Of a stretch of 64,000 nucleotides of DNA, positions 10,363-46,975 are shown in pieces (the first letter of the stretch is position 1; the number at the start of each line of letters is the position of its first letter). Both the position numbers and the translations under genes were made by a program. The stretch covers positions 8,494,001-8,558,000 of the forward strand of contig CM022671.1 of assembly GCA_012295275.1 (NCBI GenBank), read 5' to 3'. Origin of the DNA: Chrysomallon squamiferum (Eukaryota; Animalia; Mollusca). The notes below the pieces were generated by a model. It did not search any database and was not told the DNA's origin. It saw only the letters and a program-made list of their open reading frames with translations.

Positions 10363-13300
10363 TTACATTGTCTGTACGGGAGGCAGTCCATTTTGTGCTT
10401 CTGAATTCAGTATAGAAGGTAATCCAGCTCCTGCTCCAGAAGTTAGTGAGGGAGACAATCCATTTCCTGTTCCGATTGGTGGTAATGTAGGTAATCTATT
10501 TCCTGTTCCGATTGGTGGTAATGTAGGTAATCCATTTCCTGTTCCGGTTGGTGGTAATGTAGGTAATCCATTTCCTGTTCCGGTTGGTGGTAATGTAGGT
10601 AATCCATTTCCTGTTCCGGTTGGTGGTAATGTAGGTAATCCATTTCCGGTTCCGGTTGGCGGCAATGGAGGTAATCTATTTCCTGTTCCGGTTGGCGGAG
10701 GCAATCCATTGGATGAAGGTGAAGGTGTAGTAAGTCCACTTCTTGTATTTTGATTATTGTCATCCACTCCAACCCTCTGAAAAACACACATTGTATAATC
10801 ACAATTATTATAATGATGATTATAAAAGTGATATTTATGTGTGTATTACCTATACATGCATATATGAATGGATGAATGCTGCCTATTTAACGGATTTAGA
10901 ATTTAGATAACAATTTTTGTAGGTTACATTTGAGTTGAATTGTGGATAGTTTTGGAACTTTTCACTCATAAAAACACATCGCCTGTCATTCATTTTATTC
11001 TAGCACTAATGGAACCAGTATTATTGAGATGTGTCCGAGCCACTTGTTGTCAATACAATTACTGTCTTTTACTACAAGTAATTCTTACTTACGTTTTGTT
11101 TTCGATTCTTATACCGTATGTAAAACACTCTAACAAGAATAACCACAAGGACTGTGAGAATTATCATGCCTGCGATGATTCCTGCCAAAATTCAAATACA
11201 AGAAGAAAAGTATTTATATTATGTAGATTTAAAAATGTGTTAAAGCGCGTCGTTAAATAACATACCAACAATCTTATAAAGTAAAAAACAACAAAACAAC
11301 AAAACTATAATTGTATGTACAGGTAGGATATCTCTGAGACGTAAATTATACAAGAAAACGCGAAATAAAATAAAATATACATCAATGATTAGTATATCAA
11401 TATAACATATAAATGAATGGACATTGATAGAACACACTTTTATAGAAACAAAGCTCTGGATCTGGCAGTAATAATATTAATTAATTCTGAAATTTTGAGA
11501 GAGGCATCATTATAATGTACTTGAGTACAGCTGTAAAATTATAAAAACAACCCAGCAACAAACAATCAAATCAAATACACAGTTTTAATCAAACCTGCAA
11601 TGACTGCAGTATTTTTCGGTGAGGGTTCAGCTGAAATATATGGTACGGTGGTATTATCTGTATTAGATGTCTCGGTGGTATGATCTGTAGTAGATGTCTC
11701 GGTGATGTTATCTGTAGTAGATGTCTCGGTGGTGGAAGCTGTCGTGCATGGCGCTGGGGTCGTCTGGTTAGTGACACCACACGTCAGGGTTAGGACAACA
11801 CCAGGGGTTGTGGCTACGTTATCCAAGAAAATATGGAAAAGAGTAAAAACCATAAACTTGTATGTTTACTAGTACACGTAGTCCGCAGCAATACGAAAAC
11901 TCACTTATATGAATTTATATAGAAGAAGCTAGAGTACACAATAATAACAACAATAATAATAGTGGTAGTACTTGCAGTAGTAGTAGTAGTAGTAGTAGAA
12001 GCAGTAGTAATAGCAATGCTGACGAAGACGATAATGATGTTACTAATAAGGATTATCATAATAAGAATGATTATGTTTATACTAAATACTAAATATGGAT
12101 GAATATGTGTATTATGCTATGTTTTTTCATATATGTATATGCAGGTGCATGAAATGTGTATGTGTGCACATATATATCTGTGTATGTGTATGTGTGTGTG
12201 TCTGTGTGTGTAAGTGTATGTTACATTCAGTATATTAATTCAATTAATTCATAGGCTAAAAAAGTCATTTATTACCATTTATCTGTATCCATATTTTTCC
12301 ACCATTTATTTGTCCATTATTAAGTCTGAGTTTAATAAAATTTGTAGAACTCTGATATATTTGTGTAATATTATATCCAGTGTTGTTGCTACAGGCGATA
12401 TTTGTTACGTCGTTGCCGTCCTCAATTTCAAGTTGTTGCAGACATTGGAATGACAATTCTATAGCGGTGATGGTGATGTTGTTGCCGCATGACGTAGACA
12501 CTGTGCACTCTTGTAAAGAGTTGTTGACATTGATGAGACCTGGGTATTCTGTATTCAGTAAATAAACTTCTGTTCCAGTTAGCGATGTGTTGTTGTCTGA
12601 GAAACTTGCAGTTACCATTTCTGTAAAACAAATCTGGTCTTTTACATTTTATTTCCAAATATTCAAAAGGAAATACAAAACATAAATGAAATAATAATAT
12701 AATATAATGTAATATAATATAACGCGCCCAAATGTTGTAAATTGTCTGATAATTATTTTCTTCATGTATATATATATATATGCATATTTAGAAAGATATA
12801 TATTTATATATAAGCATTCTAAAATAGAAAATAAGATGTCGCCACCATCGATAATAATAATACACAAAAGACCCACAACCACAACCAAAAAAGTAACAAG
12901 AATGCGAAAAGAAAATTCAGAATATAAATGAAATAATATAACATATTATAATGCGCTCAAATGTTTATAAATGATCTGATAATTTTGATTTCATTATATA
13001 TATATATATGTGTGTGTGTGTGTGCTTATTTAGAAATATATTTATATATATAAGCATACTGAAATAGAAAATAAGATGTCGCCACCCTCGACAATAAAAA
13101 AAAATAATAAAGAAAACACCCAGAAACCCCACCAAAAAGTAACAAGCGAAAACCCACCAATTATTATATATATATATCACTATACAAATGCGCAAATAAT
13201 ATATGCTAGTAACTAATGTTGTTAATGAAATATTTTCCTTTGTGAATTTACAAACTGGTAAAATAATATTTACATTAATTTTCTGAAATTATACACTTTG

Positions 13301-14558
13301 CTTAAAAATATTGAAACTGTTAAGAACTTAGTTCACTATACTCAGAGATAAGAGGTACATAATTTTCAGTGAACATTTCACTACGTAAGAAAAGTAAAAG
13401 AAGGTCAGCAAGATGTTTAAAAGGAATTAAAATTAAAAGATGGAAAAGCAAGAAATAATAATAATAAAAACAACAACAACAACATCTACTACAACAACAA
13501 CAACAATAATAATAATAATAACAATAATAATACTGATAAAGATAATAATAATAAATAAATAAGTAAAGATGATAATAATAATAATAATAATAAAAGGAGA
13601 AGAAATGTAAAAATGTATCCTTGAATAAAACATGGCGTAATACCAACAATATTATAATAGATAAGAGATAAAAGATCATTCTAAGAAATAAGTCAATATT
13701 AAAGATAAGACATGGACAGTAACGAAAACGTTGAAAACGGAATTATTTAAAAAATAAGATAAAAGTAAATATGTATGGATTGTTAATACAGTTTTAATAA
13801 AACAGAAGTAATAGCACGACACTGTTAATTTTGCAGTAAAAACAACAACATACCACTAATACAAAAGTATTCTAGCATCATGTACGTGGTGTAGATCCTT
13901 CCGTATTCATCACTTGAACAGCTGTACATTCTCTGATATGTAGCACCCAGTCTGTTTGTTTGTTCTCCAGTGAATGCTTTATAATAATTCATCATGGCTG
14001 AACCATTGTAAAAGTCTTTACAATCAGACACATTGTACTGGCAACAGTACGCGAGACTGCTCGTATTTGGTGTCATCTCGACTGGACATCCTGTGTCATT
14101 TGGCTTTGTTAGAGCATACTGCGTATCAATGACGATTCGTTCCTCTGAATTACAGTTGGGTTTAAGCAGGATATCTCCGTCCGAACCATAACATGCAGTT
14201 TCGAAACGTAAGTTTCCAGGCAACAGTGCTGTAAATAATGATATTACGTTTTCAGTTATAACAATCTGTGTTATGTAATGATATTAATTTTTAATTTAAT
14301 ATATATATATTTGATCACTATGCATGTTTTGAAGTATGCTTGATGTATGCGTGTATGTACCTGTTTGAGTCTGTCTCTGTCTATGTTTGTGTACAGACAG
14401 AGAGAAAGATTAACAGTTAAATTAATGAAAAGAAAATTATATTTTAATCCATGTCGGTAAAACAATTGCTTTGTTAAAAAAATGTCTTGGAACTTACCTG
14501 TTTCTGAACATCGCAGTATGGCACCTACAAGAATTACAAAAAACAGCCAAGATTCCAT
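10363..14558 (-). CDS. Paralog A: uncharacterised type-I membrane glycoprotein (signal peptide, SUEL/Gal-lectin-like Cys domain, CUB-like domain, Thr stalk, TM, Pro-rich repeat tail), ~500 aa
   Basis: Manual splicing with GT-AG borders and matching phases: exons 14558-14498 (MESWLFFVILVGAILRCSET), 14228-13854 (ALLPGNLRFETAC...YMMLEYFCIS), 12620-12276 (EMVTASFSDN...GGKIWIQIN), 11813-11595 (ATTPGVVLTLTC...TETSTTD repeats), 11181-11093 (GIIAGMIILTVLVVILVRVFYIRYKNRKQN), 10776-10363 (RVGVDD...PPTGTGNGLPTL x7...VQTM*). Total 1503 nt, no internal stop. Domain names come from Cys spacing/motif resemblance only. Confidence 0.85.
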
Positions 14559-46700: not shown

Positions 46701-46975
46701 TGATGTTTGTTTTCCAGTGAATTCTTTGTAATAAGTCAACATAGCTGAACCGGTGTAAATGAGTTTACAATCAGATTCGTTGAACTGGCAACAGTTTGTA
46801 AGGCTGCTCGTGTTTCCTGTCATCGAGTCAGGACATCCTTTGTCCGATGGTTTTGTTAAAGTGTATTCTGTATCAATCACAATTCGTTCCTCTGGACCAC
46901 ACTTGGGTTGAAGCAGGGTATCTCCCTCCGAACCATAACATCCACTGTCGCTGTATAATGTTCCAGGCAACAGTT
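43725..46975 (-). pseudogene. Paralog D pseudogene (exons 2-4 only)
   Basis: Exon 2 (46975-46598) has an in-frame TGA at 46698-46700. Exon 3 (44788-44444) has a Trp->TGA at 44457-44459. Exon 4 (43852-43725) has an early stop and its donor GT changed to TT. No exon 1, TM or tail exon is found, and a Tigger-like insertion lies in intron 2. Confidence 0.8.
44984..45661 (+). mobile_element. Internally deleted Tigger/pogo-family DNA transposon
   Basis: Right end ...CTTGTAAGTCAAGGTACCACTG followed by TA. Degenerate left end GTACCTCGAGATACGACTTACGAG. Internal ORF MEPKKASAKDSVEKNKPMMSIELKHEIIEKHERGVRVVNVAKQYERSTSTI matches the CENP-B-type N-terminal HTH of Tigger transposases. No DDE domain. Absent from intron 2 of paralogs A-C. 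Confidence 0.85.

What the first reader, a model, noticed from the sequence alone, without database searches (positions are those of the whole stretch)
10363..46975. Birth-and-death array of an uncharacterised lectin-like/CUB-like type-I receptor family directly beside a TLR
Seen: at least 6 paralogs in ~37 kb (3 intact, 3 decayed, both orientations) share a conserved 6-exon structure with one exon per domain. Known: SUEL/rhamnose-binding-lectin and CUB domains are extracellular recognition modules, and tandem expansion with pseudogenes is typical of invertebrate immune and recognition loci. Inference: this is a lineage-specific cell-surface recognition receptor family (immune, allorecognition or gamete recognition) that I cannot match to any named gene. 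It is fragmented across small exons and invisible as a single ORF.
Basis: partly seen in the sequence, partly recalled or inferred. Interest (0 to 1): 0.85.

Follow-up and report, generated by a model that had tools for sequence, protein, structure and literature searches.

The report
Mollusc receptor array swapping tip domains
This window holds three intact and four broken copies of an unnamed, mollusc-wide gene for a predicted membrane protein whose outermost domain, predicted to have a lectin-like fold, differs between most copies two to three times more than the next domain and was likely swapped between copies, so these are likely variable recognition receptors, while the Toll-like receptor next door is probably only a neighbour.

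Summary
The array is real. Three open six-exon genes (A, B, C) and four remnants (D-G) encode signal peptide, SUEL/rhamnose-lectin-like fold, CUB fold, Ser/Thr stalk, one membrane helix and a tail of 36-bp repeats. Predicted structures match both folds (Z 7.1-7.5 for exon 2; Z 9.7-11.5 for CUB, in the closest named relative). The family is not lineage-specific: relatives with both domains occur in scallop, oysters, mussels, clams and abalone, best in Gigantopelta aegis, none with a characterised name; only this expansion is local. The lectin signatures (YGR, DPC, KYL) are missing from their places, so rhamnose binding is unlikely. dN/dS above 1 was not shown, and no RNA confirms the models. 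The best Gigantopelta matches of the TLR and of the family lie on different records. Verdict: an undescribed mollusc receptor family, likely variable recognition; TLR link probably incidental.

The parts
10363..14558 (-). Copy A, open six-exon gene model, 500 aa (exons 14558-14498, 14228-13854, 12620-12276, 11813-11595, 11181-11093, 10776-10363)
   Evidence: collinear with RefSeq relative P0004 over the first three junctions
14498..14558 (-). A exon 1, predicted signal peptide
   Evidence: hydrophobic N-terminus; aligns with N-terminus of P0004
13854..14228 (-). A exon 2, SUEL/RBL-like domain, 8 Cys, CxGxxxC pair lost, the most divergent exon among copies
12276..12620 (-). A exon 3, CUB-like domain (last strand in exon 4)
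11595..11813 (-). A exon 4, last CUB strand plus Ser/Thr stalk with 27-bp repeat
11093..11181 (-). A exon 5, transmembrane helix and basic stop-transfer stretch
10363..10776 (-). A exon 6, cytoplasmic tail with 6.6 copies of a 36-bp (12-aa) Pro/Gly/Thr repeat carrying LPP[LIT]
25332..29592 (-). Copy B, open six-exon model, 576 or 588 aa (29592-29532, 29333-28956, 28011-27667, 27121-26930, 26518 or 26482-26394, 25997-25332); 13.5 tail repeats
38039..41691 (-). Copy C, open six-exon model, 385 or 391 aa (41691-41631, 41411-41037, 40147-39806, 39330-39232, 38742 or 38724-38636, 38230-38039); short stalk, short tail
43725..46975 (-). Remnant D: exons 2-4 only, stops in exons 2 and 3, frameshift and lost donor in exon 4, insertion of about 0.7 kb in intron 2
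19415..21398 (+). Remnant E, inverted: broken exon 2, open exon 3 (20485-20841), part of exon 4; no exon 1
33763..34231 (+). Remnant F, inverted: 3' part of exon 3 and part of exon 4; E-type copy with a deletion of about 2 kb
37554..37760 (-). Remnant G: orphan 3' part of exon 6 ending like copy A
1..1110 (+). Inverted copy of the 3' flank of the family; likely belongs to a further copy left of the window
   Evidence: 71% over 1215 columns to 37370-36251
48913..51950 (+). Neighbouring Toll-like receptor model, 835 aa (exons 48913-48924, 49455-51950), head to head with the array; neighbour, not shown to be part of the system

Best explanation
These genes are a local expansion of an unnamed, mollusc-wide family of predicted single-pass surface proteins that likely work as variable recognition receptors: a predicted SUEL-fold tip likely binds a protein or non-rhamnose ligand, a predicted CUB domain and a Ser/Thr stalk of variable length would hold it off the membrane, and a tail without a catalytic domain would pass the signal through repeated LPP[LI] motifs. 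Shown: gene structure, family range, missing lectin motifs, excess divergence and mosaic ancestry of intron 1 plus exon 2, variable stalk and tail repeat number, shared tail motif. Predicted: both folds. Inferred: unequal crossing-over and gene conversion homogenise most of each copy while distinct tip variants persist and move between copies, which is what selection for several specificities would leave; the ligand class, the signalling route and an immune or self/non-self role.
For: Exon 2 differs 17.5-20.8% in 5 of 6 pairs among A-D, against 6.4-11.1% for exon 3 and 8.9-15.7% for the next 180 intron bases; exon 2 against unique intron 2/3 sequence p 0.002 or less in those 5 pairs. Informative sites group AD|BC in intron 1 plus exon 2 (37 against 2) and AB|CD from exon 3 on (15 against 4), Fisher p 1.5e-8. 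dN/dS 0.74-0.90 in exon 2 against 0.41-0.62 in exon 3, all 8 cysteines kept in A-D and changes falling in family-variable columns (48 of 80 against 14 of 44, rho -0.31, p 5e-4). Fold: pLDDT 92, best VIA matches are latrophilin lectin domains, SUL-I and CSL3 (Z 7.1-7.5, rmsd 3.5-4.1, 85-90 aligned; first unrelated row 4.2). SUEL-type domains bind proteins in LAT-1 and EVA-1 (passages). LPP[LI] in 6 of 13 relatives' tails against 0.11 in shuffles (p 5e-4). Several loci on one record in abalone too. Clusters of diverse single-pass proteins are candidate recognition loci in Biomphalaria (passages).
Against: No pair or segment has dN/dS significantly above 1 (highest 1.5-1.9 in residues 70-103 for A against B, C, D, p 0.29-0.77), and the exon 2 against exon 3 contrast in N:S counts is not significant (p 0.18, 0.21). 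dS is raised in exon 2 too (0.27-0.33 against 0.13-0.23), so the peak can arise because conversion stalls once a stretch has diverged, without selection. B and C are close in exon 2 (6.7%). Four of seven copies are dead. The tail motif was picked after seeing the tails and is one of five patterns tried. Z under 8 is middling by the tool's own note, Foldseek gave no E of 0.001 or less, and Pfam finds nothing in exons 2 and 3. The family is old and widespread, as a conserved adhesion or guidance role would also make it.
Confidence: 0.5

Rival explanations
1. A conserved adhesion or guidance co-receptor of the EVA-1 or latrophilin-ectodomain kind, binding an endogenous protein; the local array is near-neutral turnover in a repeat-rich stretch and the exon 2 peak is a by-product of stalled gene conversion.
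For: Family across bivalves and gastropods with a shared tail motif; best fold matches are latrophilin domains; no significant dN/dS above 1; four dead copies.
Against: Exon 2 is less constrained than exon 3 and even the local clade lost a cysteine pair kept in 42 of 48 complete units; relatives are only about 25-42% identical in this domain; several loci per genome in abalone, Sinanodonta, Solemya, Saccostrea.
Confidence: 0.24
2. A true carbohydrate-binding receptor with a remodelled site that reads microbial or symbiont glycans.
For: SUEL/RBL fold; a bivalve RBL binds LPS (abstract and passages of PMC10817417).
Against: YGR, DPC and KYL are absent from their positions in all three window copies and in the relatives aligned; the motif mapping rests on cysteine spacing, not on a residue-level superposition.
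Confidence: 0.1
3. A partner or co-receptor of the neighbouring TLR, binding its ectodomain as the LAT-1 lectin domain binds TOL-1 in C. elegans.
For: Head-to-head position, 1.9 kb between remnant D and the TLR start; LAT-1 lectin domain bound to TOL-1 is among the fold matches (8suf, Z 6.7, rmsd 4.6, 95 aligned); the precedent is shown by structure and mutation (passages of bioRxiv 10.1101/2023.05.04.539414).
Against: In Gigantopelta aegis the best TLR match lies on a 96.8 Mb record and the best family match on a 120.6 Mb record (best hits, not proven orthologues). LAT-1 binds the cap of a second LRR domain, whereas this TLR reads as a single LRR solenoid (inference from the sequence). The copy next to the TLR is dead. 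A cytochrome P450 is the TLR's other neighbour.
Confidence: 0.07
4. A gamete-recognition receptor family.
For: CUB folds include spermadhesins (1spp, Z 9.8); SUEL lectins were first described from eggs (passage); fast-changing tip.
Against: Nothing in the window or the relatives' names points to gonad; paralogue mosaicism with many dead copies is recalled as more typical of defence loci.
Confidence: 0.06
5. The array is silent or an assembly artefact.
For: A likely assembly duplicate with a gap lies just left of it (4026-6685 against 6886-9534, 95%).
Against: Copies differ 6-21% in exons, three keep open frames and all splice signals, exon 3 is under purifying selection (dN/dS about 0.5, p under 0.05 in 3 of 10 pairs), RefSeq relatives are collinear.
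Confidence: 0.03

Closest known systems
SUEL / rhamnose-binding lectins (SUL-I, CSL3; Pfam PF02140)
   Same: Predicted fold of exon 2 (Z 7.2-7.4); ESM Atlas neighbours carry PF02140 on 21-36% of members (score 0.92-0.94); two relatives hit PF02140 weakly (E 0.006).
   Different: No YGR, DPC or KYL in place; an extra CC pair and a longer loop (124 against about 100 residues); the CxGxxxC pair lost in this clade; membrane-anchored behind a CUB domain.
Latrophilin / LAT-1 lectin domain
   Same: Best fold matches (Z 6.7-7.7); a SUEL fold used for protein binding, including a Toll receptor.
   Different: No olfactomedin, GAIN or seven-helix region; multicopy and fast-changing, where latrophilins are conserved.
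C. elegans EVA-1
   Same: Single-pass protein with SUEL-type domains, short non-catalytic tail, protein ligands (passages of PMC4133157).
   Different: Two lectin-like domains and no CUB; single conserved gene; no sequence match found to it.
[quoted passage not shown]
   Same: Snail clusters of diverse single-pass proteins with lineage-specific tandem duplications (passages of PMC10875847); three relatives here touch TMEM154 below its cut-off at E 5e-5 to 0.012, a family named for PTC1 genes.
   Different: Domains named there are C-type lectin, FN3, Ig and TMEM154, and 'CUB' does not occur in that main text; homology to PTC genes and allelic polymorphism were not tested.
Unnamed mollusc SUEL-like + CUB proteins (e.g. 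Gigantopelta aegis XP_041350913, Haliotis rufescens LOC124112732, Magallana gigas A0A8W8P4K6)
   Same: Same two-domain unit, 40-42% identity to the Gigantopelta protein; 23 of 26 relatives of 240 aa or more carry the CUB-like unit; 18 of 42 have a membrane helix by my hydropathy rule.
   Different: Window clade lacks the CxGxxxC pair, lacks the long basic tail and the C-terminal motif seen in 4 of 13 tails, and has a tail of 36-bp repeats.

Membership tests
SUEL / rhamnose-binding lectin | SUEL alpha/beta fold | tested here: met
   AlphaFold2 model pLDDT 92; the top five VIA rows and Foldseek ranks 1-11 are RBL domains; Z 7.1-7.5 is middling, Foldseek E 0.03-0.11
SUEL / rhamnose-binding lectin | N-terminal (AN)YGR(TD) motif (PMC10817417) | tested here: not met
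   YALTK at that position in A, B, C; YGR occurs in A and B only near the C-terminus, a different place; 0 of 51 units from relatives hold YGR
SUEL / rhamnose-binding lectin | C-terminal DPCxGT(Y)KY(L) motif | tested here: not met
   No DPC or KYL in the window copies; TYM or NYM stands before the last strand; DPC strings in 7 relatives' envelopes lie elsewhere, by the alignment
SUEL / rhamnose-binding lectin | Eight conserved cysteines, four disulfides in the RBL pattern | tested here: inconclusive
   Eight cysteines, but a different set: CxGxxxC pair lost, extra CC gained; connectivity could not be read from the model
SUEL / rhamnose-binding lectin | Binding of L-rhamnose or D-galactose | not testable with these tools
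   needs a glycan array or calorimetry
CUB domain | CUB beta-sandwich fold of about 110 residues | tested here: met
   Tested on relative P0004: top 20 VIA rows are CUB-containing, Z 9.7-11.5, rmsd 2.4-3.2, 105-113 aligned; window exon 3 is 46% identical to that part, E 3e-30; Atlas 0.93. Exon 3 itself was not folded.
Calcium-binding CUB subset | Acidic triad of one Glu and two Asp (PMC10214685) | tested here: not met
   0 of 19 relatives' segments match YD or FxSD patterns (patterns recalled); window exon 3 reads CLQQL and LNNG there
Latrophilin / adhesion GPCR | GAIN domain and seven membrane helices | tested here: not met
   one membrane helix per model; no such exons in the copies
EVA-1 family | Two galactose-binding lectin-like domains, no CUB | tested here: not met
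   one SUEL-like plus one CUB-like domain
Polymorphic transmembrane cluster (PTC-type) recognition locus | Tandem cluster of single-pass proteins with divergent ectodomains | tested here: met
Polymorphic transmembrane cluster (PTC-type) recognition locus | High allelic diversity and association with resistance | not testable with these tools
   needs population and phenotype data
Unnamed mollusc SUEL-like + CUB family | Ten-cysteine-type SUEL-like unit (K-x5-C, CC-x6-DC, YM-x5-C) followed by a CUB-like unit | tested here: met
   44 hits at E 0.001 or less, 2 of them spurious repeats and dropped; invariant K41, C47, C61, C62, C69, G87, C103, C122

The most novel reading that the evidence does not exclude
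Molluscs have an old, undescribed family of variable receptors that use a sugar-blind SUEL fold as an exchangeable specificity tip: paralogues trade intron 1 plus exon 2 while the CUB stem is homogenised, and a conserved LPP[LI] docking motif is multiplied by tail repeats to tune signalling. It would be a candidate for the missing mollusc self/non-self or symbiont-recognition receptors, and in its boldest form (about 7%) a TLR ectodomain partner like LAT-1 for TOL-1.
Probability: 0.25. Interest if true: 0.75.

Novelty: new variant of a known kind. Interest (0 to 1): 0.48.

Why it matters
Few variable recognition receptors are known in molluscs, and this family is missed by Pfam in both domains of the window copies. 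If the reading holds, it gives a family present in farmed oysters, mussels, scallops and abalone with a defined candidate specificity exon, a defined tail motif and a simple test (tip swap, ligand screen, population diversity of exon 2). If it does not, it is still a correctable annotation gap: a SUEL-like domain subtype without a profile.

Tried and rejected
No whole genome was held, so copy number outside the window and synteny could not be read directly. RNA: no RNA holder listed. On 9000-13400 the one holder covers introns as well as exons and shows no exon-exon joint among the joints listed, so it looks like DNA; three RNA runs of the same label laid 14, 7 and 3 short pieces, none on an exon among those listed; no evidence on expression either way. 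Its summed depths are not a copy number and were not used. Complex prediction of TLR ectodomain with exon 2 domain: no answer (score 0.00, alignments not used, controls not folded). Word-index search with exon 2 alone found nothing; the full HMMER search did. Sequence searches of solved structures found no SUEL or CUB entry. Metagenome contigs: 171 pattern matches, none confirmed. Earlier findings of the scan: none in three look-ups. P0012 and P0034 were dropped as low-complexity repeats before counts; 6 partial units were set aside from 54 in the cysteine-pair count; 44 units of 105 residues or more went into the tree. Positive selection by segment: five segments, five pairs, none significantly above 1. 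Rejected: assembly artefact; lineage-specific family; classical rhamnose lectin; latrophilin or EVA-1 orthologue. The NMT1 Pfam hit on the insertion in D intron 2 was not believed. Literature: ten searches; none returned a description of a SUEL-like + CUB membrane family in molluscs; the library lacks most subscription papers and no supplement was read, so a mention there may exist.
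Full report
Observation. The window is AT-rich animal DNA. Self-comparison and exon searches show seven pieces of one gene family between 10.4 and 47.0 kb. A, B and C (minus strand) splice to open frames of 500, 576/588 and 385/391 aa with GT-AG introns and the same phases. Each has a hydrophobic N-terminus, a 124-125 aa cysteine-rich exon 2, a 113-114 aa exon 3, a Ser/Thr stalk of 26-63 aa (31-48% Ser+Thr), one membrane helix and a tail built from a 36-bp repeat (6.6 copies in A, 13.5 in B, one or two in C). 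D, E, F and G are remnants. A block from 15.0 to 24.5 kb matches 30.8 to 36.3 kb, so the array grew by duplicating a gene together with an inverted remnant, and E and F come from one copy. No RNA confirms the models, but they align to the RefSeq protein XP_041350913 across the first three junctions.

Folds. Pfam finds nothing in exons 2 and 3. The ESM Atlas places exon 2 near SUEL-lectin clusters (0.94, 209 shared features, but recognition 1780, under the tool's mark) and exon 3 near CUB clusters (0.93). An AlphaFold2 model of exon 2 (pLDDT 92) matches latrophilin lectin domains, SUL-I and CSL3 (Z 7.1-7.5, rmsd 3.5-4.1 over 85-90 residues), then two Plasmodium domains and the rice beta-galactosidase C-terminal domain, with a drop to 4.2 below; Foldseek ranks eleven RBL chains first, at weak E-values. 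The second domain was folded in the relative P0004 (pLDDT 88): its top 20 matches are CUB proteins (Z 9.7-11.5), and window exon 3 is 46% identical to that part.

Family. A full HMMER search with exon 2 gave 44 representatives, two spurious. Of 30 looked up (27 family members, 2 TLRs counted apart and P0060-P0062 included in the last call), those with names come from Pecten, Argopecten, Magallana, Saccostrea, Mytilus, Sinanodonta, Potamilus, Solemya, Haliotis, Patella and Gigantopelta, plus Tegillarca; the names are 'uncharacterized', 'hypothetical', 'CUB domain-containing' or low-complexity look-alikes such as 'mucin-17-like'. 23 of 26 relatives of 240 aa or more carry the CUB-like unit. Four Haliotis rufescens loci lie on one 63.3 Mb record. 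In the tree the three window copies form a clade (100/96) sister to Gigantopelta and an unnamed ENA protein (100/97). So the family is mollusc-wide and the expansion is local; the host is likely a gastropod near Gigantopelta (inference; the TLR's best match is the same species, 55%).

Not a classical lectin. RBL domains are defined by YGR, DPC and KYL motifs and eight cysteines (passages of PMC10817417). The family has YALTK-like sequence at the first position and TYM or NYM at the last; YGR occurs in A and B only at an unrelated C-terminal place. The family adds a CC pair; 42 of 48 complete units keep the CxGxxxC pair and 6 lack it: the three window copies, their two sister sequences and P0014. 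The CUB domain lacks the acidic patterns of calcium-binding CUBs (0 of 19; patterns recalled, triad cited from passages of PMC10214685). SUEL-type domains bind proteins in EVA-1 (passages of PMC4133157) and LAT-1 (passages of bioRxiv 10.1101/2023.05.04.539414), so a protein ligand is the likelier reading.

The tip behaves differently from the rest. In pairwise alignments exon 2 differs 17.5-20.8% in five of six pairs among A-D, against 6.4-11.1% for exon 3, 8.9-15.7% for the next 180 intron bases and 7-11% for the 5' flank; B and C differ only 6.7% there (a multiple alignment gives 19-25%). Informative sites group A+D against B+C in intron 1 and exon 2 (37 to 2) but A+B against C+D from exon 3 on (15 to 4; p 1.5e-8), so the copies are mosaics. 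dN/dS is 0.74-0.90 in exon 2 and 0.41-0.62 in exon 3; cysteines are kept and changes fall in family-variable columns. Against the selective reading: no pair or segment is significantly above 1, the exon contrast in N:S counts is not significant, and dS is raised in exon 2 as well, which stalled conversion alone can produce. That such a peak marks specificity exons of defence and self-recognition genes is recalled; my search for a citation found none.

Tail. LPP[LI] occurs in 6 of 13 relatives' tails of 60 aa or more against 0.11 in 2000 shuffles (chosen after inspection, one of five patterns). The window's repeat is built around it (RLPPL, TLPPI, and LPPV or LPPI at the end). There is no catalytic or TIR domain and no tyrosine past the juxtamembrane stretch. 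The binding partner is unknown.

TLR. The neighbour is a two-exon, 835-aa LRR-TIR gene, head to head with the dead copy D. A SUEL-fold domain binding a Toll receptor has a precedent (8suf, among the fold matches). But the best Gigantopelta matches of the two genes lie on records of 96.8 and 120.6 Mb, LAT-1 binds a second LRR domain that this TLR seems to lack (inference), and a cytochrome P450 flanks the other side. Best hits are not proven orthologues and clustering can hide other copies, so linkage elsewhere is not excluded.

Literature. Ten searches returned no description of this family. Passages only were read of PMC8878817 (says the role of SUEL lectins in lophotrochozoans is elusive), PMC10875847, PMC7736800, PMC10140915 and the four papers above; no whole text and no supplement.

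Verdict. A real birth-and-death array of an undescribed mollusc SUEL-like + CUB membrane family. It works most likely as a variable recognition receptor (0.5), with a conserved co-receptor plus neutral turnover as main rival (0.24). It is not an RBL by motif, not a latrophilin or EVA-1, and resembles PTC-type clusters in kind only. New variant of a known kind; interest 0.48.

Noticed in passing
window 4026-9534: A 2.7 kb stretch (4026-6685) is repeated at 95% identity (6886-9534) across a 200-N gap (6686-6885); likely an assembly or haplotype duplicate.
   Followed up: partly
window 3240-4652 and 6886-7517: Minisatellite of about 24 bases with long open frames on both strands; looks non-coding.
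   Followed up: no
window 55946-61295, minus strand: Multi-exon cytochrome P450 gene beyond the TLR (Pfam p450 on three exons).
   Followed up: partly
window 44985-45663 and 19026-19190: Insertions starting TACAGTGG(T/G)ACCT, one in intron 2 of D with a short helix-turn-helix-like frame, one where exon 1 of E would lie; recalled as pogo/Tigger-like transposon remnants.
   Followed up: partly
window 11181-11210, 26482-26518, 38724-38742: Exon 5 acceptor differs among copies: B has an upstream acceptor adding 12 residues, A has lost that stretch by deletion, C has another; a second in-frame acceptor exists in B and C.
   Followed up: partly
P0001, P0003, P0005, P0028: Some bivalve relatives hold two to four SUEL-like + CUB units in one model; true repeats or fused tandem genes.
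   Followed up: no
P0036, P0033: The SUEL-like unit also occurs with 16 EB-module repeats (P0036) and with a long stalk and no detected CUB unit (P0033, Patella).
   Followed up: no
P0003, P0016, P0036, P0042 tails: A C-terminal motif like [IVL][DE]I-x0-3-D-x-[PE] after a basic stretch in 4 of 13 tails (0.07 in shuffles), absent from the window copies.
   Followed up: partly
window 2185-2469, 22620-23376, 34309-35105: A repeated spacer element, 85-90% identical, with open frames but no Pfam match; moves with the block duplications.
   Followed up: no
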